A stretch of DNA of 64,000 nt from Escherichia coli 042 (lineage in GTDB: Bacteria > Pseudomonadota > Gammaproteobacteria > Enterobacterales > Enterobacteriaceae), in NCBI RefSeq assembly GCF_000027125.1, contig NC_017626.1. The stretch is one strand, 5' to 3'. The translations under genes were made by a program, and so were the position numbers. Of the stretch, positions 56,292 to 64,000 are shown piece after piece (within the stretch, counting starts at the first letter, position 1; each line of letters starts with the position of its first letter). Below the pieces are notes generated by a model. It saw only the letters and a program-made list of their open reading frames with translations, had not been told where the DNA came from and searched no databases.

Positions 56292-56941
56292 ATAAACCTG
56301 TTATCTCCCGGGCTGAACAGATTTTTTATCCCGGCTGGCTGATGGTCAGCCAGCTGCGCAGCGGGCAACCGGTTGAGGATGGTAAGGCCCTGTATCGCCG
56401 TGCCTGTCAGCTGGTGAAACAGGCGCGTGAAGAGCTGGCCGAAGCAGGATTCAGTCAGAAAAGCAGTGACATCATGTTGTATGCCTTCTGCGCCCTGCTG
56501 GACGAGAGTGTACTGAACCGCGAAAAAACAGACGATGGCTGGCGCACCTGGCAGCAGGACCCGCTGCAGGCTCATTTTTTTGGTACGCTCAATGCCGGTG
56601 AAGAGCTCTGGGAGCGTATTCGTGAACAACTGAAATTACCAGCGCCGGATGTGGCGGTACTGACATGCCTCTGCCGTACGCTTCAGCTCGGTTTTACCGG
56701 TCAGTACCGGTCGCAGGATGATGAGCGTCGCGAAGATGTAATACGCGCACTGACAGCGCGTGTTCCTGCATTTACTTTCGCACAGGATGCGCCGGTGGTG
56801 GTGCGTGCACCGGGTTACCGTGCTGGCAGAACGATGTACTGGTTGTCATGGGGGGCGGGTATTGTGACGCTGGCTGGTCTCTGGTGTGTGCTTTCTTCTG
56901 TGCTTGCAGACCAGGTGGCACGGCTTACCGGGCAGGGATAA
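56288..56941 (+). CDS. tssL: TssL (DotU/ImpK) membrane-complex subunit
   Basis: The ATG at 56288 overlaps the tssK stop (ATGA). 217 aa with a DotU-type cytoplasmic domain plus one C-terminal TM segment (WLSWGAGIVTLAGLWCVLSSVL). Confidence 0.9.
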   Translation: MNKPVISRAEQIFYPGWLMVSQLRSGQPVEDGKALYRRACQLVKQAREELAEAGFSQKSSDIMLYAFCALLDESVLNREKTDDGWRTWQQDPLQAHFFGTLNAGEELWERIREQLKLPAPDVAVLTCLCRTLQLGFTGQYRSQDDERREDVIRALTARVPAFTFAQDAPVVVRAPGYRAGRTMYWLSWGAGIVTLAGLWCVLSSVLADQVARLTGQG

Positions 56942-56943
56942 CC

Positions 56944-58674
56944 ATGCACGTACGTTCCCGTCTCTGGCTGACAATACTGAGTCTGTTCCTGACACTGTGG
57001 CTGATTTCGGGATTCCTGCCGCTGTCTGCAGTAAACCAGATAATACTGACCCTGGTTTCAGTTGTGGCGGCGGGGCTTGTGCTGTGGTACCAGTGGCGTT
57101 GTCTGTCTTCCCGTCGTGATATCCCGGAGAAGGCCGGCGATGACGGTCTGCCGCCTGAGTATTTTCAGGGACATGTGCTGCTTGTTGCCGGAAACTCAGA
57201 TGCGTGGTTCGAACCCGGTCAGGCATACCGGGAAACAGCATCGGGATGGTATCTTCGTGTGGATACGCCGGAGCAGATGAGAATACTGGCAGAACGGTTG
57301 TCGTACAGCCGTCCGGCCCTGTGTGGCCAGGTCGTGGTCATGCTGGGACTTTTACCGGAGCAGCATACCTCAGATGAAGCTTTCCTGTCGTGGTTGCGGA
57401 ACTGGCAGCGTGCAGTCATGCAGTGCCGGCAGTGGCTGAATACCACGCCACCGGTGCTGGTTACATTGATGGTTTCAGAGCCGTCACCACAAAACACATC
57501 CTTAAATAAGCACTCTACACACTGGTTTACACTGACACCGGACCTGCCGGGAATGCATATACGCCTGACGGAAGCCGGAGCAATTCCGGCAGAGGAATGG
57601 CTGCAGGCGTGTGATGCAGCGTCCAGGCTCCGGTGCGTCAGTGAACTGTTATGGCTGAATGCCATGTTGTCCTGGTACAACCGGGTTACTGATGCCCTGA
57701 CAGCTATTTGCCGGCAGGAGCACTTTTATTTCCGGCCGGTTGCCGTTGGATTCTGTCTGACGTCGGTTGCGGCCCGCCCCGGTAATCTCTGGCAACAACA
57801 ACTGACGTCCCTCACTGCATTGCCACCGCCTGCCGGCGTGTCATCACAGGTATTGCCGTTGCCGGATATTCTGCTGTCCGGTATTCCCCGTCATCGTGGA
57901 CTCAGTCACTGGCACAGACTTTGTCGCCAGACGGGGGCGATTGTCGGTGTTTTTCTTCTGCTGGCTATGCTGGCGTCTTTTATGAATAACCAGCGGCTGG
58001 TTCGCAGCGTGGGGGAACACCTGACGGCCTGGCACCGGATGCGCGGATATTCATCTGAATCGAAAACAACAGCACTGCAACGTCTTCAGGCTGACAGCCA
58101 GTTACTGAACGACTGGCAGCAACGTGGTGTGCCACAGCGTTACGGACTGGGATTGTATCAGGGAATGTGGCTGATACCGCCGGTTGAGCGTGCGACTGGT
58201 GAGTGGGTTGCACCACGGCCTCCCCGTCCGGTGATACAGAAAGTTACTCAGACGCCGAAAACGGTTCGCCTTAACAGCCTGGCACTGTTTGATGCCGGTA
58301 AATGGACGCTGAAGCCGGGCGCCACAAAATGGCTGGTGAATGCCCTGGTGGATATTAAGGCAAAAGCAGGCTGGCTGATTGTGGTCAGTGGTCACACGGA
58401 TAATACCGGTGACCCGCTGCGCAACCAGGCCTTGTCCCTGAAGCGTGCAGAGGCCGTTCGCGACTGGATGCGGGATACCGGCGATATTCCCCAAAGCTGT
58501 TTTGCCGTACAGGGATACGGTGAAAGCCGCCCTGTGGCCCCGAATGACACGGCGGAAGGCCGTGCGCGTAACCGCCGTGTTGAAATCAGTCTGGTACCGC
58601 AGGCCGATGCCTGTCGTCTGCCGGACGTTTCCCCTGCGCCGGAAGAGGGCGCATCAGAAAACATAACGGAGTAA
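56944..58674 (+). CDS. tagL: TagL (SciZ-like) peptidoglycan-anchoring accessory protein
   Basis: The ATG at 56944 lies 2 nt after the tssL stop. 576 aa with three predicted TM helices and a C-terminal OmpA/MotB peptidoglycan-binding motif, GHTDNTGDPLRNQALSLKRAEAVRDW...NRRVEI. Confidence 0.85.
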   Translation: MHVRSRLWLTILSLFLTLWLISGFLPLSAVNQIILTLVSVVAAGLVLWYQWRCLSSRRDIPEKAGDDGLPPEYFQGHVLLVAGNSDAWFEPGQAYRETASGWYLRVDTPEQMRILAERLSYSRPALCGQVVVMLGLLPEQHTSDEAFLSWLRNWQRAVMQCRQWLNTTPPVLVTLMVSEPSPQNTSLNKHSTHWFTLTPDLPGMHIRLTEAGAIPAEEWLQACDAASRLRCVSELLWLNAMLSWYNRVTDALTAICRQEHFYFRPVAVGFCLTSVAARPGNLWQQQLTSLTALPPPAGVSSQVLPLPDILLSGIPRHRGLSHWHRLCRQTGAIVGVFLLLAMLASFMNNQRLVRSVGEHLTAWHRMRGYSSESKTTALQRLQADSQLLNDWQQRGVPQRYGLGLYQGMWLIPPVERATGEWVAPRPPRPVIQKVTQTPKTVRLNSLALFDAGKWTLKPGATKWLVNALVDIKAKAGWLIVVSGHTDNTGDPLRNQALSLKRAEAVRDWMRDTGDIPQSCFAVQGYGESRPVAPNDTAEGRARNRRVEISLVPQADACRLPDVSPAPEEGASENITE

Positions 58675-59216: not shown

Positions 59217-59330
59217 CTTCAGCATCTGTTGGCGGGTGCTGAAGAAAGAATTCTCAATCCTGAACACAGACCTGATGCGCCTGGGTTACGGCGAAGGGCG
59301 GTAGCGTGCCTGACGGTCTCCTGACAGTGA

Positions 59331-61997
59331 GTGAATAACATGGAAAATTCGGCAGCCCTGTTACGTCGTCTTAATCATTACTGTGCCCGTGCACTGGAAG
59401 GCGCAGCCTCCCTTTGCCAGACCCGGGCCCATGCGGAAATCACCCCGGAGCACTGGTTACTGAAACTGCTGGAGCAGGGGGAAGGAGACCTTACCGTGCT
59501 GGGCAGGCGTTATGACTGGGATATGGACGCGATATGGCAGTCGCTGCTCGGCTGGCTGGATAACCAGCCCCGTAGCGTACGCAGTCGCCCGCAGCTTGCG
59601 CAGTCCCTGAATGCTCTGCTGAAACAGGCCTGGATGGTGGCCTCATTACAGGGAGAAGAACATATCCGCAGCGTGCATCTGCTGGGTGCCCTGACGGAAA
59701 ATCCGCACCTGGTTCGCTGTGACGGGCTGTGGCCTCTGCTGACACTGAGTCAGAGCCAGTTGCAGCGTCTGTCCCCGCTGCTGGATGCGCAGTCTGATGA
59801 GTGTCCGGAGACGTTACAGGATGCAGAGCCTGTGCTGCCTCAGGGAGACAGTGTGACCTTTATCGGGCGCCCTGTCGGTGCGGATACGGCAGGTATACCG
59901 TCAGGTGACCTGCCGCCGGTGTTACAGGGTGCGCTGGATAAATTCACCCGGGACATCACGGCCAGCGCGAGAGAGGGGAAAATTGACCCGGTATCGGGAC
60001 GCGATACGGAAATCCGTCAGATGGTGGATATTCTCTCCCGCCGTCGCAAGAATAACCCGATTCTGGTGGGGGACCCCGGTGTGGGGAAAACGGCTCTGGT
60101 GGAAGGGCTCGCCCTGCGTATTGTGGAAGGTAACGTACCAGAATCTCTCAGACCCGTCACCCTGCGCACCCTTGACCTCGGCCTGCTGCAGGCCGGTGCC
60201 GGCGTGAAAGGTGAATTTGAACAGCGTCTGAAAAACGTGATTGATGCCGTGCAGCTGTCACCGGCTCCTGTACTGCTGTTTATAGATGAAGCCCATACCC
60301 TTATCGGTGCCGGTAATCAGGCCGGTGGCGCGGATGCGGCCAACCTGCTGAAGCCTGCGCTGGCGCGAGGCGAACTGCGCACCATTGCTGCCACCACCTG
60401 GTCTGAGTACAAACAATACCTGGAACGTGACGCGGCTCTGGAGCGGCGTTTTCAGATGGTCAAAGTGGACGAGCCGGATGATGAGACGGCCTGTCTGATG
60501 CTGCGCTCCCTGAAATCCCGTTATGCGGAACATCATAACGTGCATATCACCGATGAGGCAGTACGTGCTGCCGTCACACTCTCGCGCCGTTATCTGACAG
60601 AACGTCAGTTACCGGACAAGGCCGTTGACCTGCTTGATACTGCTGCTGCCCGTGTGCGGATGAGCCTCGACACGGTGCCGGAACAGCTGACCCGAATCCG
60701 TTCACAGCTCGCTTCCCTCGGTATGGAAAAACAGGCACTGCTGGAAGATATTGCCGTTGGTCATCAGAATCACGGCGAACGCCTGTCTGCCATTGAGCAG
60801 GAAGAGAACGTGCTGATGACAGCACGTGATGACCTGGAGCAGCAGTACGCCCGTGAGTGCGAACTCACCGGTGAGTTACTTGAAAGCCGCAGCGATATTT
60901 CCCGCCAGAGTGAGACACATCACCTGCAGCAGGCACTGCACGACATTCAGCAGAATCAGCCCCTGCTCAGTGTGGATGTTGACGTACGCACCGTTGCCGG
61001 TGTGGTCGCGGACTGGACCGGAGTGCCGTTATCCTCACTGATGAAGGATGAACAGACGGAACTGCTGCATCTGGAAAAGGATATCGGCAGACGGGTGGTC
61101 GGACAGGACGTGGCACTGGAATCCATTGCACAGCGTCTGCGTGCGGCGAAAACGGGTCTGACATCCGGTAACGGCCCCCAGGAGGTGTTCCTGCTGGTCG
61201 GCCCCAGTGGTGTGGGAAAAACCGAAACGGCACTGGCGCTGGCAGATGTGATGTACGGCGGCGAAAAATCACTGATTACCATCAATCTGTCGGAATATCA
61301 GGAGCCCCATACGGTTTCCCAGCTTAAGGGTTCACCGCCCGGGTACGTGGGATACGGTCAGGGGGGTATTCTGACGGAAGCTGTACGTAAGCGCCCTTAC
61401 AGCGTGGTGCTGCTGGATGAAGTGGAAAAGGCCCACCGGGATGTGCTGAATCTGTTCTACCAGGTGTTTGACCGGGGCTTTATGCGCGACGGTGAGGGGC
61501 GTGAAATTGACTTCCGTAATACGGTCATTCTGATGACCTCCAATCTGGGCAGTGACCTTCTGATGCAGCAACTGAGCGAAAAGCCGGAGACAACGGAATC
61601 GGAGCTGCATGAGCTTATCCGTCCACTGCTGCGCGACCACTTCCAGCCAGCACTGCTTGCCCGTTTCCAGACCGTGATTTACCGTCCGCTGACACCGTCT
61701 GCTATGCGCACCATTGTGGAGATGAAGCTTGCACAGGTCTGCGAACGCCTGCACTGCCATTATGGGCTGAGCACATCGGTTGATGAACGTGTGTACGATG
61801 CCCTGACATCCGCCTGCCTGCTGCCGGATACGGGCGCCCGGAATGTGGAGAGTCTGCTGAACCAGCAACTGCTGCCGGTACTGAGCCGGCAGTTGCTGAG
61901 CCATATGGCCGCGAAGCAGAAACCGCAGGCGCTGGCTCTGGCATGGAGTGACGAAGACGGTATGGTGATTGAGCTGCGGCAGGAATGCGCGTTATGA
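59331..61997 (+). CDS. clpV: ClpV (TssH) AAA+ sheath-recycling ATPase
   Basis: 888 aa from the GTG at 59331 (in-frame ATG at 59340). Two AAA+ modules with Walker A motifs GDPGVGKT and GPSGVGKT, plus a Clp-N-like N-domain. Confidence 0.95.
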
Positions 61998-62560
61998 CCG
62001 GCTATGGCAGAAATCAGGACGCTGGCGCAGGTAAAAATCAAAGGGAAGAAGGCTCATTGCGGTTACTGACGCCGGGAGAGATTGCGCTGGCGAGGCTGGT
62101 ATTCAGGTTGACAATCCCTTATGAAAAGGTCTGGATCCACCATGACAGTTTTCTGCCTTTTGGTCTTCAGAATAAGCAAACTGCCATGCCCCCCGATGGT
62201 AAGATTTATTTCCGTGAGCACTATCGGGATGATTATTCACTCAGCGTTCCCTTTTATCAGCATATGTTTATTCATGAAATGGCGCATGTCTGGCAGCGTG
62301 AAAAGGGAATGAATGTCATCGGTCGGGGGATGTTCAGTTGGGCGGTGAATTACCGTTATGTTCTGGACGGGCGTCTGTTAAGCGAATATCCCATGGAGCA
62401 GCAGGCACAAATTATTGCTGATCATTTTACTTTGCAGGCTGAAGGATACGGGACATGGTGTGATATGAGAAGGGACGGTGATATCACACTGGACGGAAAT
62501 ATGTCTGAGTATGTTATTCGCAGCCTGTATACCAGCACGTTGCGGGGGTTCCCATGGTAA
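61994..62560 (+). CDS. Uncharacterised HExxH (zinc-metallopeptidase-motif) protein, T6SS-linked
   Basis: The ATG at 61994 overlaps the clpV stop (ATGA); an alternative ATG is at 61985. 188 aa with no signal peptide. Single HExxH motif in ...FYQHMFIHEMAHVWQREKG.... Confidence 0.75.
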   Translation: MTGYGRNQDAGAGKNQREEGSLRLLTPGEIALARLVFRLTIPYEKVWIHHDSFLPFGLQNKQTAMPPDGKIYFREHYRDDYSLSVPFYQHMFIHEMAHVWQREKGMNVIGRGMFSWAVNYRYVLDGRLLSEYPMEQQAQIIADHFTLQAEGYGTWCDMRRDGDITLDGNMSEYVIRSLYTSTLRGFPW

Positions 62561-63096
62561 AAATAAGAGCCTTTCGTTATCGTTCTGCTTTACTGCTCTG
62601 TCTGACGTTACTGACAGGATGCCCCGGACGCGGGGATTATTATCGGTTTGATGAAACAGTAACGGTCAGCACAAGAGGCGACAATGTGTGTTTCAGTGTC
62701 CCGGAGCCAGAGGACTACCAGCCAGTCAGCGTTTCCATCGCTCCACGGGGAACCCGATTCAGGGAGCGGCAAATTACATCTGAACCCTCGCTTCGTATCG
62801 TGAACGGCCAGCTGTGCATTCCGCCTTCATTCTGTCTTTTTCCTGATAAAGGCCAGTTCATTGTCAGGTCTGTTCTGCACTCTGAGCGCGATAAGGACAC
62901 ACCGCGCATCATGGTTGCCGGCATAGAGATTGCCGACGGGTGTATTTTCGATATCCCGCTTAATGACATGGAGGTCGTGAGGCCATACGGTGAGCTGAAA
63001 AGCAGTAATGTTCAGACTGACCAGAGCGAACGTCATGGTCCCTGCAAATACCCTTTCAGAGCTGTTCGTGGAGTGATAAATCATGAATCTCACTGA
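62554..63096 (+). CDS. Lipoprotein, T6SS-linked (candidate immunity protein)
   Basis: The ATG at 62554 overlaps the previous stop (ATGGTAA). 180 aa. Signal peptide plus lipobox, MVKIRAFRYRSALLLCLTLLTG|C. Confidence 0.75.
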   Translation: MVKIRAFRYRSALLLCLTLLTGCPGRGDYYRFDETVTVSTRGDNVCFSVPEPEDYQPVSVSIAPRGTRFRERQITSEPSLRIVNGQLCIPPSFCLFPDKGQFIVRSVLHSERDKDTPRIMVAGIEIADGCIFDIPLNDMEVVRPYGELKSSNVQTDQSERHGPCKYPFRAVRGVINHESH

Positions 63097-64000
63097 CTCC
63101 CTGCAAAATGTTTTATCCGGGGTGGGAACCCTGAACCGCTACAGACTGGATATACCTTCCTGCCCGTCATCGCTGGATGTTGAAGATTTCAGCGGAACTG
63201 AAGGCATAAGTAAGATTTACCGGTATGACATCATTTTTACCAGTACGGACAGGTATCCTGATGCTGCCTGGTTCCTGCGTAAATCCGCAACCCTGATAAT
63301 GGGAACCGGATTACTGGAAAGCCTGACTGAACAGAAAAAAGTGCACGGTGTTATTACTGATTTCAGACGTATTTCTGGCTCTGAGGACCAGGCACAATAC
63401 CGGATCACACTTAAACCTTTCATTTCCCTGCTGGATAAACAGTTCCGTACACACCGTTTTTTCGTTAATAAATCAGTGCCTGAGGTGGTGGAGCAAATCC
63501 TGACGGAACACGGGCTGAAAGGCTGGGAGTATGAGTTCAGCCTCAAAAGGACATATCCGAAGCGCGAACAGATTAACCAGTATCAGGAAAGCGATCTGAG
63601 ATTTATCCAGCGCCTGCTGGCAGAAGTGGGCATTTTTTACTTCTTTACGTTGCACCCGGATGCGCAGACAGAGGTGATCCACTTCGGTGACGTCCAGGCG
63701 GCGTTGATATTTGATAAAACACTGCCCGTTAACAGCCCGTCCGGTATGAGTGACAGTGGCACAGACTCAGTATGGGCATTGAATGTGGAGCACCGGGTGG
63801 TGGAAAGCCGTGTTATCACGAACGACTATAACCACCGCGAGGCCCAGAACATACTGATGTCCGTACCGGCGGACATGACCCGTGGAGAAGGTTACGACAC
63901 CAGTTATGGCGAGGTTTATCATTACCGGCCACGCCATACAGAAAGGGGCGATAAAATTGACCCTGCGCCGGAGACGGCTAACTTCTGGGCCCGGCTCGAT
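63083..64000 (+). CDS. vgrG: VgrG (TssI) spike protein, N-terminal 306 aa (runs off window end)
   Basis: Not in the ORF track because no stop falls in the window. Manual translation from the ATG at 63083 gives MNLTDSLQNVLSGVGTLNRYRLDIPSCPSSLDVEDFSGTEGISKIYRYDIIF...QYQESDLRFIQRLLAEVGIFYFF..., a gp27-like VgrG signature. Open to base 64000. Confidence 0.9.
   Translation, partial: MNLTDSLQNVLSGVGTLNRYRLDIPSCPSSLDVEDFSGTEGISKIYRYDIIFTSTDRYPDAAWFLRKSATLIMGTGLLESLTEQKKVHGVITDFRRISGSEDQAQYRITLKPFISLLDKQFRTHRFFVNKSVPEVVEQILTEHGLKGWEYEFSLKRTYPKREQINQYQESDLRFIQRLLAEVGIFYFFTLHPDAQTEVIHFGDVQAALIFDKTLPVNSPSGMSDSGTDSVWALNVEHRVVESRVITNDYNHREAQNILMSVPADMTRGEGYDTSYGEVYHYRPRHTERGDKIDPAPETANFWARLD

What the first reader, a model, noticed from the sequence alone, without database searches (positions are those of the whole stretch)
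61994..63096. HExxH protein + lipoprotein translationally chained between clpV and vgrG: candidate undescribed T6SS effector/immunity (or spike-loading) pair
Seen in the sequence: the clpV stop and the next start share ATGA (61994-61997). That ORF's stop and the following start share ATGGTAA (62554-62560). The third ORF overlaps the vgrG start by 14 nt, so all four genes are translationally coupled. ORF1 (188 aa) has no export signal and a single zinc-peptidase-type motif, FIHEMAHVWQ. ORF2 (180 aa) has a textbook lipobox (LLTG|C) and is therefore exported. A cytoplasmic enzyme-like protein followed by a small exported partner directly upstream of vgrG is the canonical layout of periplasm-acting antibacterial T6SS effectors with their immunity proteins. 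I know of no assigned function for this pair. As I recall, the characterised sci-1 effector (Tle1 phospholipase) lies downstream of vgrG, outside this window.
Basis: partly seen in the sequence, partly recalled or inferred. Interest (0 to 1): 0.75.

Follow-up and report, generated by a model that had tools for sequence, protein, structure and literature searches.

The report
Known-type T6SS metallopeptidase toxin and immunity
The two small genes between clpV and vgrG in this E. coli type VI secretion cluster very probably encode a zinc-peptidase toxin fired into rival bacteria and the lipoprotein that protects the producer. This toxin/immunity family (Tpe/Tpi, VgrG2b C-terminal type) was described in 2019 and tested in Salmonella in 2026, so the finding is real but not new.

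Summary
The window is the Sci-1-type T6SS cluster of E. coli 55989, with gene order clpV-ORF1-ORF2-vgrG and overlaps of 4, 7 and 14 nt.

ORF1 (188 aa) matches no Pfam or NCBIfam model. It does match the crystal structure of the P. aeruginosa VgrG2b C-terminal effector domain (6h56; phmmer E 8e-20; Foldseek on the AF2 model E 4e-9). H94, E95, H98 and E135 are invariant and correspond to the VgrG2b zinc site.

ORF2 (180 aa) is a lipoprotein (Cys23) of DUF7480/NF045617. RefSeq already names it "putative T6SS immunity periplasmic lipoprotein".

The pair occupies the same slot as S. arizonae SARI_02727/SARI_02726 (63% and 43% identity). That pair was shown in 2026 to be a periplasm-acting effector/immunity pair.

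In sister E. coli clusters about 94% identical on both flanks, window 61970-63150 is replaced by an Ssp6-family effector cassette or is absent. The pair is therefore swappable cargo, not machinery.

Verdict: the effector/immunity reading is supported, and "undescribed" is not. This is a new member of a known kind. The substrate and the loading route remain unknown.

The parts
59297..59308 (+). ops element (GGCGGTAGCGTG), the RfaH loading site, in the hcp-clpV intergenic region upstream of the operon segment that holds ORF1/ORF2
   Evidence: one match in the window against 0.09 expected. bioRxiv 10.1101/2025.02.08.637259 reports that in EAEC a reporter placed between clpV and the next gene loses expression in ops1 and rfaH mutants.
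59340..61997 (+). clpV/tssH (T6SS ATPase); its stop overlaps the ORF1 start (ATGA)
   Evidence: RefSeq annotation; sequence.
61970..63150 (+). Exchangeable cassette segment. It is bounded by the last ~25 nt of clpV and the first ~68 nt of vgrG. Sister E. coli clusters lose homology exactly between these points.
   Evidence: blastn of L001 against L003: 94.1% identity up to L001 20070 (window 61969) and 93.5% identity from L001 21252 (window 63151). In 26 listed E. coli genomes (60 further matching records were not listed) megablast matches stop at query position 1470, which is window 61969.
61994..62560 (+). ORF1, 188 aa. A stand-alone Tpe-type (VgrG2b C-terminal-like) zinc metallopeptidase and predicted T6SS cargo effector.
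   Evidence: phmmer against PDB: 6h56_A, E 7.9e-20. AF2 model pLDDT 79.9. Foldseek 6h56 E 4e-9, TM 0.59-0.62. 63% identity to the S. arizonae SPI-20 protein P0175. 246 homologues found.
62273..62287 (+). HEMAH codons (H94, E95, H98): predicted zinc ligands and catalytic glutamate
   Evidence: Invariant in alignments A1 and A4. They align with H935/E936/H939 of VgrG2b (residue roles from PMC6899460).
62396..62398 (+). E135 codon (in MEQQAQII): predicted third zinc ligand of a gluzincin
   Evidence: Invariant. It aligns with the E of IEQQ in 6h56. The H-to-E spacing of 41 residues plus the 7-residue insertion in VgrG2b gives 48, matching H935-E983.
62554..63096 (+). ORF2, 180 aa. A Tpi-type immunity lipoprotein (DUF7480 / NF045617), predicted to be anchored to the outer membrane and to face the periplasm.
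   Evidence: NCBIfam NF045617 5e-24 and Pfam PF24295 2e-11. 43% identity to the partner of the S. arizonae effector. AF2 model is an Ig/FN3-like beta-sandwich.
62554..62622 (+). Lipoprotein signal peptide with lipobox LTG|C (Cys23 at 62620-62622; +2 residue is Pro, not Asp)
   Evidence: Sequence. G22, C23 and P24 are invariant in A5. A lipobox is present in nearly all Enterobacterales partners.
63083..64000 (+). 5' part of vgrG (cut by the window end); overlaps ORF2 by 14 nt; followed outside the window by tle1-tli1-tli1-PAAR
   Evidence: Pfam Phage_GPD 3e-47 and TIGR03361; RefSeq annotation.

Best explanation
ORF1/ORF2 are a T6SS antibacterial effector/immunity cassette of the Tpe/Tpi (VgrG2b C-terminal metallopeptidase / PA0261) family.

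Proposed mechanism:
- ORF1 is made in the cytoplasm without a signal peptide. It is harmless there because its target is in the cell envelope.
- It is loaded as a small (about 21 kDa) cargo onto the Hcp/VgrG/PAAR projectile of the Sci-1 machine and fired into the periplasm of neighbouring Gram-negative cells.
- There its zinc-dependent peptidase centre (H94, E95, H98, E135) damages an envelope target. In the characterised relative this causes blebbing at the division site and lysis.
- Sister cells are protected by ORF2. This is a lipoprotein exported by Sec/Lsp and probably sorted to the outer membrane. Its periplasmic beta-sandwich domain binds and blocks ORF1.
- The two genes are co-transcribed with clpV and vgrG in the RfaH-dependent part of the operon, and their overlapping stop/start codons favour coupled synthesis.

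Shown here: homology, catalytic residues, fold, lipobox, synteny with a validated pair, and cassette behaviour.

Inferred: toxicity, delivery by this T6SS, binding of ORF2 to ORF1, the loading route (Hcp lumen or VgrG) and the substrate.
For: (1) ORF1 matches the solved VgrG2b effector domain by sequence (E 7.9e-20, residues 22-153). It also matches by predicted fold: 6h56 is the only significant PDB hit, E 4e-9, TM about 0.6.

(2) H94/E95/H98/E135 are invariant in 35 homologues. They correspond to H935/E936/H939/E983 of VgrG2b. Mutation of the first three (H935, E936, H939) abolishes periplasmic toxicity; E983 is the third zinc ligand in the structure (PMC6899460).

(3) ORF2 passes the curated cut-offs of NF045617 'putative T6SS immunity periplasmic lipoprotein' and of DUF7480. 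It has an invariant lipobox.

(4) In S. arizonae SPI-20 the same slot, clpV-X-Y-vgrG, holds a 189-aa protein 63% identical to ORF1 and a 154-aa DUF7480 lipoprotein 43% identical to ORF2. SARI_02727/SARI_02726 (189 aa and 154 aa, H95/E96) were shown to be an effector/immunity pair. The evidence was competition assays, PelB-directed periplasmic toxicity and partial rescue by the lipoprotein (PMC12992299).

(5) The pair behaves as a cassette.
- In E. coli clusters 94% identical on both flanks, window 61970-63150 is replaced by an 'Ssp6 family T6SS pore-forming effector' plus an 83-aa membrane ORF, with the same vgrG-tle1 downstream.
- In others the segment is absent.
- Tpe-type pairs are combined with at least four different vgrG-cargo sets.

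(6) The family shows typical toxin-domain behaviour.
- Stand-alone copies are followed by a lipoprotein in about 45 Enterobacterales loci.
- Some copies are fused to VgrG C-termini (L062, L077).
- Some pairs are orphans, one directly after an orphan hcp (L039).
- Some loci carry duplicated immunity genes.

(7) The immunity gene diverges faster than the effector: about 43% against about 64% identity across syntenic loci.
Against: - There is no experiment on the E. coli proteins.
- A review (PMC6730261) summarises Flaugnatti et al. 2016 as attributing the antibacterial activity of EAEC Sci-1 to Tle1. Any contribution of ORF1 may therefore be small or conditional. I could not verify that the model strains 17-2/042 carry this cassette rather than the Ssp6-like one.
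- The A. baylyi relative Tpe1 intoxicates E. coli only in low-salt medium (PMC6899460).
- No substrate has been identified for any family member.
- ORF1 carries no recognised loading signal (no MIX, PAAR or Rhs), and no adaptor gene is nearby.
- Homology of ORF2 to the Pseudomonas-type partners is only moderately supported: hhalign probability 85%, E 6e-6, with no Pfam hit for those partners.
Confidence: 0.85

Rival explanations
1. Structural accessory or spike-loading pair: ORF1/ORF2 help assemble or load the Sci-1 machine (for example a chaperone/adaptor for VgrG, or an enzyme that opens the cell wall for the apparatus) and are not a toxin and antidote.
For: The genes sit between two core genes and overlap both. 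The position clpV-X-Y-vgrG is conserved in many Enterobacterales genera.
Against: - Sci-1-type clusters in other E. coli, 94-97% identical in clpV and the other core genes, lack the pair or have an unrelated effector cassette in its place.
- The same domain is found fused to VgrG C-termini and as orphan pairs next to housekeeping genes.
- ORF2 is duplicated in several loci.
- ORF1 has no signal peptide, so it cannot reach the producer's own cell wall.
- The S. arizonae deletion mutant behaves as an effector/immunity mutant, not as an assembly mutant.
Confidence: 0.03
2. Mainly an anti-eukaryotic (or trans-kingdom) effector: ORF1 acts on host cells during EAEC infection, as was proposed for VgrG2b and the microtubule-nucleating complex. 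ORF2 would be only a safeguard.
For: VgrG2b promotes uptake of P. aeruginosa into epithelial cells (PMC4453011, listed; discussed). The host strain is an enteric pathogen.
Against: - A dedicated periplasmic immunity lipoprotein, conserved and co-inherited in about 45 loci including plant- and soil-associated genera, argues for a bacterial periplasmic target.
- The validated relatives kill bacteria.
- Nothing in the sequence points to a eukaryotic target.
Confidence: 0.05
3. A retained but inactive or undelivered cassette in this strain: the genes are intact but contribute nothing to Sci-1 killing, which is carried by Tle1.
For: - The reported dominance of Tle1 in EAEC.
- Conditional toxicity of Tpe1.
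- Altered HExxH motifs in two species representatives (HEMAY in L004, HEMVD in L050) show that the family can decay.
- Truncated E. coli copies exist in the protein cluster.
Against: - Here all four catalytic residues and the lipobox are intact.
- The pair is 96.5-100% conserved over 33 full-length matches in complete E. coli genomes and is present on more than 1000 contigs.
- It is placed in the RfaH-dependent operon segment.
Confidence: 0.07

Closest known systems
SARI_02727 / SARI_02726 of Salmonella enterica subsp. arizonae SPI-20 (PMC12992299, 2026)
   Same: - Same slot (clpV-effector-lipoprotein-vgrG) in a syntenic T6SS cluster.
- The effector is 189 aa against 188 aa, 63% identical, with HExxH and Glu at equivalent positions.
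- The partner is a DUF7480 lipoprotein, 43% identical.
- The same 7-nt stop/start overlap (8564-8570 in L084).
   Different: - ORF2 has an extra C-terminal tail of about 26 residues that overlaps vgrG.
- S. arizonae has an additional 69-aa ORF before vgrG.
- S. arizonae has a different vgrG cargo set (741-aa protein plus an FGE-sulfatase-like protein instead of Tle1/Tli1).
- The E. coli pair is untested.
VgrG2b C-terminal domain / PA0261 of Pseudomonas aeruginosa (Wood et al. 2019, PMC6899460; PDB 6h56)
   Same: - Homologous catalytic domain (E 8e-20; 36% identity over 160 structurally aligned columns).
- Same zinc ligands.
- A periplasm-exposed partner encoded immediately downstream.
   Different: - There the domain is fused to the VgrG spike (a specialised effector). 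Here it is a free-standing cargo protein with a disordered 20-residue N-terminus and a conserved C-terminal LRGFPW.
- PA0261-type partners have a type I signal peptide and are not matched by DUF7480. Only a profile-profile link was found.
Tpe1 / Tpi1 (ACIAD0053/ACIAD0054) of Acinetobacter baylyi (Ringel et al. 2017, as cited in PMC6899460)
   Same: A stand-alone cargo metallopeptidase effector of the same family that acts in the periplasm.
   Different: Its immunity protein is anchored by a transmembrane helix in the inner membrane, not by a lipid anchor. Its toxicity to E. coli is seen only at low osmolarity. I made no direct sequence comparison here.
Ssp6-family pore-forming effector cassette in sister E. 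coli Sci-1-type clusters
   Same: It occupies exactly the same clpV-vgrG slot with the same flanks: a small effector followed by a small envelope protein.
   Different: The sequence is unrelated (213 aa, no HExxH), and the partner is an 83-aa membrane protein. The family name rests on one RefSeq annotation. No Pfam or NCBIfam model matched.

Membership tests
Tpe (VgrG2b C-terminal) T6SS metallopeptidase effectors | Sequence homology to the VgrG2b C-terminal effector domain | tested here: met
   phmmer against PDB: 6h56_A E 7.9e-20, residues 22-153.
Tpe (VgrG2b C-terminal) T6SS metallopeptidase effectors | HExxH plus a downstream Glu as third zinc ligand (gluzincin) | tested here: met
   H94, E95, H98 and E135 are invariant in 35 homologues and align with H935/E936/H939/E983.
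Tpe (VgrG2b C-terminal) T6SS metallopeptidase effectors | Thermolysin-like fold of 6h56 | tested here: met
   AF2 model pLDDT 79.9, pTM 0.78. In Foldseek against PDB only 6h56 is significant: E 4e-9, probability 1.00, TM 0.59-0.62. This is a predicted model, not a solved structure.
Tpe (VgrG2b C-terminal) T6SS metallopeptidase effectors | Genetic association with a T6SS and with a small envelope-targeted ORF immediately downstream | tested here: met
Tpe (VgrG2b C-terminal) T6SS metallopeptidase effectors | Toxicity in the periplasm that depends on the catalytic residues; T6SS-dependent delivery | not testable with these tools
   Shown for VgrG2b, Tpe1 and SARI_02727 in the literature, not for this protein.
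Pfam DUF4157 (the label Wood et al. say is often attached to this family) | Match to the Pfam model | tested here: not met
   ORF1 matches no Pfam-A family at E <= 1 and no NCBIfam model. The enterobacterial stand-alone subfamily is outside current profile coverage and is mislabelled 'type IV secretion protein Rhs' in databases.
Tpi / DUF7480 / NF045617 immunity lipoproteins | Match above the curated cut-off | tested here: met
   NF045617 84.7 bits (cut-off 43); PF24295 44.3 bits (cut-off 27).
Tpi / DUF7480 / NF045617 immunity lipoproteins | Lipoprotein signal peptide with lipobox Cys; no Asp at +2 (outer-membrane sorting) | tested here: met
   LTG|C23-P24. G22/C23/P24 are invariant. Outer-membrane location was shown only for SARI_02726.
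Tpi / DUF7480 / NF045617 immunity lipoproteins | Homology to PA0261-type partners of VgrG-fused effectors | tested here: inconclusive
   hhalign of A2 against A3: probability 85%, E 6.3e-6 over 136 columns, with conserved Cys positions aligned. Pfam DUF7480 does not hit those partners. The PA0261 sequence itself was not available.
Tpi / DUF7480 / NF045617 immunity lipoproteins | Binds and neutralises the cognate effector | not testable with these tools
   AF3 ipTM 0.87 and partial rescue were reported for the S. arizonae pair.
T6SS structural/accessory (Tag) proteins | Present wherever the cluster type is present | tested here: not met
   About 90 E. coli genomes have a clpV at least 90% identical, but only 33-34 carry the pair. 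36 carry the Ssp6-like cassette, and at least one cluster examined (L002) joins clpV directly to vgrG.

The most novel reading that the evidence does not exclude
The clpV-vgrG junction of Sci-1-type clusters is a dedicated exchange slot. Short effector/immunity cassettes (Tpe/Tpi-type, Ssp6-type, or none) are swapped there by recombination within the conserved last ~25 nt of clpV and the first ~70 nt of vgrG. This swapping is independent of the cargo encoded after vgrG.

If so, the model EAEC-type Sci-1 machine carries a second, so far overlooked payload besides Tle1. That payload is probably loaded by a route that does not use the VgrG C-terminal extension, for example the Hcp lumen.
Probability: 0.45. 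Interest if true: 0.4.

Novelty: new member of a known kind. Interest (0 to 1): 0.28.

Why it matters
- The Sci-1 cluster is the best-studied E. coli T6SS, and its killing has been ascribed to Tle1. Recognising a second intact effector/immunity cassette inside it matters for interpreting competition experiments and immunity phenotypes.
- Database names need correcting. ORF1 homologues are widely mislabelled 'type IV secretion protein Rhs' or 'hypothetical', and no Pfam or NCBIfam model covers them.
- The family's substrate is still unknown. An E. coli member in a genetically tractable model system would be a convenient place to find it.
- The cassette-swap pattern gives a simple rule for finding further effectors: look between clpV and vgrG.
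- None of this changes the current picture of T6SS biology.

Tried and rejected
- Pfam and NCBIfam scans of ORF1 gave no hit. The identification came only from the PDB sequence search.
- The PDB sequence search with ORF2 gave no hit. Foldseek of the ORF2 model against PDB gave only generic Ig/FN3-like sandwiches, none below E 0.01. Foldseek against AFDB50 was unavailable, so no structural link to PA0261 could be tested.
It was repeated without that fragment.
- E. coli 042 (NC_017626.1) is not in the genome collection. I therefore could not verify whether EC042_4531/4532 of the model strain are this cassette or the Ssp6-like one.
- NCBIfam and Pfam gave nothing for the Ssp6-like protein or its 83-aa partner. 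That family name rests on one RefSeq product name.
- Pfam DUF7480 does not reach the partners of the VgrG-fused forms.
- I considered and rejected a cell-wall-remodelling enzyme acting for the producer's own machine, because ORF1 has no export signal.
- I considered and rejected a structural Tag protein, because the pair is absent from sister clusters.
- The upstream neighbours of orphan pairs are heterogeneous housekeeping genes. They give no common loading partner, apart from one orphan hcp (L039) and one position after tssE (L050).


Full report
WHAT IS THERE

The window is 100% identical to the chromosome of enteroaggregative E. coli 55989 (NC_011748.1). The finding lies in its Sci-1-type T6SS cluster. 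The gene order is tssB-tssC-tssK-tssL-tagL(OmpA)-hcp-clpV-ORF1-ORF2-vgrG-tle1-tli1-tli1-PAAR-...-tssM.

- The clpV stop and ORF1 start share ATGA at 61994-61997.
- ORF1 (61994-62560) is 188 aa and has one HExxH, H94-E95-M-A-H98.
- The ORF1 stop and ORF2 start share ATGGTAA at 62554-62560.
- ORF2 (62554-63096) is 180 aa and has the lipobox LTG|C23.
- vgrG begins at 63083, giving a 14-nt overlap with ORF2.
- Tle1 is indeed encoded after vgrG, outside the window.

These are also the RefSeq gene calls. RefSeq labels ORF1 'hypothetical protein' and ORF2 'putative T6SS immunity periplasmic lipoprotein'.

IDENTITY OF ORF1

ORF1 matches no Pfam or NCBIfam model. Against all PDB sequences it has a single strong match: the effector domain of P. 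aeruginosa VgrG2b (6h56_A, E 7.9e-20, residues 22-153).

An AlphaFold2 model built on 35 homologues has mean pLDDT 79.9, with residues 1-19 disordered. In a Foldseek search of the PDB the model finds only 6h56 with significance (E 4e-9, probability 1.00, TM 0.59-0.62).

The database search returned 246 homologues. The 120 best, which were the ones listed, are 138-197 aa (mostly about 175-195) and come from Enterobacterales. They are commonly mislabelled 'type IV secretion protein Rhs'.

In alignments of 35 homologues (59-79% identity), H94, E95, H98 and E135 (in MEQQAQII) are invariant. Allowing for a 7-residue insertion in VgrG2b, E135 corresponds to E983. H94/E95/H98 correspond to H935/E936/H939, which are the zinc ligands and catalytic glutamate of the crystal structure. 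Mutation of H935, E936 or H939 abolishes toxicity (PMC6899460).

IDENTITY OF ORF2

ORF2 passes the curated thresholds of NCBIfam NF045617 ('putative T6SS immunity periplasmic lipoprotein', 84.7 bits) and Pfam DUF7480. G22-C23-P24 and two further cysteines are invariant. The +2 residue is not Asp, so outer-membrane sorting is expected.

The AF2 model (pLDDT 71.8) is an Ig/FN3-like beta-sandwich with no specific relative in the PDB.

A profile-profile comparison links the enterobacterial lipoproteins to the signal-peptide proteins encoded after VgrG-fused metallopeptidases in Pseudomonas, Massilia, Luteimonas and others (hhalign probability 85%, E 6e-6). Pfam DUF7480 does not reach those proteins.

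LITERATURE

Wood et al. 2019 (PMC6899460) solved 6h56 and reported the following:
- The domain is toxic only in the periplasm and only with an intact HExxH.
- PA0261 is its periplasmic immunity protein.
- They proposed the family name Tpe/Tpi.
- They noted that many Enterobacteriaceae encode the domain as a stand-alone cargo effector followed by a lipoprotein, naming SARI_02727/SARI_02726 of S. arizonae.

A 2026 paper (PMC12992299) validated that pair with deletion/competition assays, PelB-directed periplasmic toxicity, partial rescue by the lipoprotein and an AF3 complex with ipTM 0.87.

I retrieved an S. arizonae SPI-20 locus (L084). It has tssC-tssK-tssL-tagL-hcp-clpV, then a 189-aa protein, then a 154-aa DUF7480 lipoprotein overlapping it by 7 nt, and then vgrG. 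These two proteins are 63% and 43% identical to ORF1 and ORF2. Their sizes and catalytic positions match those published for SARI_02727/26.

I found no paper that discusses the E. coli pair. The only hit for the neighbouring locus tags uses the clpV/EC042_4531 junction as a reporter insertion site.

CARGO OR MACHINERY?

The distribution in 5,426 complete E. coli genomes answers this.
- About 90 genomes have a clpV at least 90% identical to this one. In the 26 of them listed in the table (60 further matching records were not listed), the match stops at window 61969, about 25 nt before the clpV stop.
- Only 33-34 genomes carry ORF1-ORF2.
- In 36 genomes the slot holds a 213-aa protein that RefSeq names 'Ssp6 family T6SS pore-forming effector' in one record, followed by an 83-aa membrane ORF.
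- A direct comparison shows 94% identity up to window 61969 and again from window 63151. This includes the same vgrG-tle1-tli1-tli1-PAAR. Only the cassette 61970-63150 is exchanged.
- In strain A19, clpV abuts a different vgrG, followed by a VgrG3-like muramidase and TsiV3.
- The Ssp6-like cassette also occurs with another vgrG cargo set.
- Diverged Tpe/Tpi alleles occur in other E. coli with vgrG plus 'lipase family protein'.

The cassette and the post-vgrG cargo therefore assort independently. This is the behaviour of an effector/immunity module, not of an assembly factor.

ACROSS SPECIES

I examined 80 loci from GTDB species representatives with scripts.
- The arrangement clpV-ORF1-ORF2-vgrG recurs in about 25 Enterobacterales loci, usually with the same 7-nt overlap.
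- In about 45 Enterobacterales loci the homologue is followed by a 135-175-aa lipoprotein. This holds even where BLASTP no longer detects ORF2 similarity; Pfam DUF7480 confirmed several of these.
- The immunity-like gene is duplicated in L004, L009, L010 and L012.
- Orphan pairs sit among housekeeping genes. One sits directly after an orphan hcp (L039) and one after tssE (L050).
- In Massilia (L062) and a Pseudomonas (L077) the domain is the C-terminus of an evolved VgrG.
- The effector is more conserved than its partner: about 64% against about 43% identity to the E. coli proteins.
- Two representatives have altered motifs: HEMAY in L004 and HEMVD in L050.

MECHANISM

The best-supported reading is a cargo effector delivered by Sci-1 into the prey periplasm, where a gluzincin-type zinc peptidase damages the envelope. 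Self-protection comes from a periplasm-facing, probably outer-membrane, lipoprotein.

Shown here are the homology, the catalytic residues, the fold, the lipobox, synteny with a validated pair, and the cassette behaviour.

Inferred are the toxicity of this particular protein, its delivery, and ORF1-ORF2 binding.

Unknown are the substrate and the loading route.
- Substrate: Wood et al. found no direct cleavage. They saw blebbing at the septum and depletion of lipoproteins from membranes.
- Loading route: the small size, the absence of an adaptor, association with several VgrG types and one hcp-linked orphan make the Hcp lumen a reasonable guess. This guess was not tested.

CAVEATS

- Sci-1 killing in EAEC has been attributed to Tle1.
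- Tpe1 of A. baylyi is toxic to E. coli only at low salt.
- ORF1 may therefore be a conditional or minor contributor.
- I could not check which cassette the model strains 042 and 17-2 carry.

VERDICT

The pair is a member of an already described and experimentally tested family, and ORF2 is already annotated accordingly. The small residual interest lies in three points:
- An overlooked second payload in a model T6SS.
- The clean cassette-exchange slot between clpV and vgrG.
- The lack of any profile-database coverage for the enterobacterial effector subfamily.

Noticed in passing
window 59297-59308 (+): A perfect ops element (GGCGGTAGCGTG) lies in the hcp-clpV intergenic region; 0.09 matches are expected by chance. 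It fits the RfaH-dependent transcription of the distal Sci-1 genes reported for EAEC, so ORF1/ORF2 expression should depend on RfaH.
   Followed up: partly
window 61970-63150; L003 10471-11520; L087 4987-5930: The clpV-vgrG slot is an exchange point. In 36 E. coli genomes the Tpe/Tpi pair is replaced by an 'Ssp6 family' effector (213 aa) plus an unannotated 83-aa ORF with two hydrophobic stretches (L003 11129-11380). The flanks are about 94% identical.
   Followed up: yes
L002 12877-15547 (E. coli A19): A sister cluster has no gene between clpV and vgrG. After vgrG it carries a 774-aa protein with a VgrG3-like C-terminal (muramidase-type) domain and a TsiV3-family immunity gene.
   Followed up: partly
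L004 5983-6528; L050 5992-6513: Two species representatives have a changed second histidine in the motif: Pseudenterobacter timonensis HEMAY and Ewingella americana HEMVD. These may be inactivated toxins or an alternative metal ligand.
   Followed up: no
L004 6522-7694; L009 6510-7497; L010 2038-3159; L012 6513-7522: The ORF2-type lipoprotein gene is present in two or more tandem copies or fragments after the effector. This looks like an immunity-gene array.
   Followed up: no
window 62536-62560 and the ORF1 C-terminus: The last residues of ORF1 (LRGFPW) are nearly invariant. Their codons (CGG GGG TTC CCA TGG TAA) also supply a G-rich ribosome-binding stretch and the ATG of ORF2. 'FP(W)' persists in orphan pairs without the overlap, so the constraint is at least partly on the protein.
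   Followed up: partly
window 61985 vs 61994: ORF1 has two in-frame ATG codons three codons apart (MRVMTG...). An AGGA lies 9-12 nt upstream of it.
   Followed up: no
window 56848-58674: The longest ORF for the OmpA-domain TagL-like protein is 608 aa. RefSeq starts it 32 codons later (576 aa, window 56944), abutting tssL.
   Followed up: no
L039 5499-6995 (Rahnella sp.): An orphan hcp (Pfam T6SS_HCP) is followed directly by a Tpe homologue and a DUF7480 lipoprotein, far from any T6SS core gene. This hints at Hcp-dependent loading for this effector family.
   Followed up: partly
public protein databases: ORF1 homologues are systematically named 'type IV secretion protein Rhs', which is wrong on both counts. 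No Pfam or NCBIfam model covers them.
   Followed up: yes
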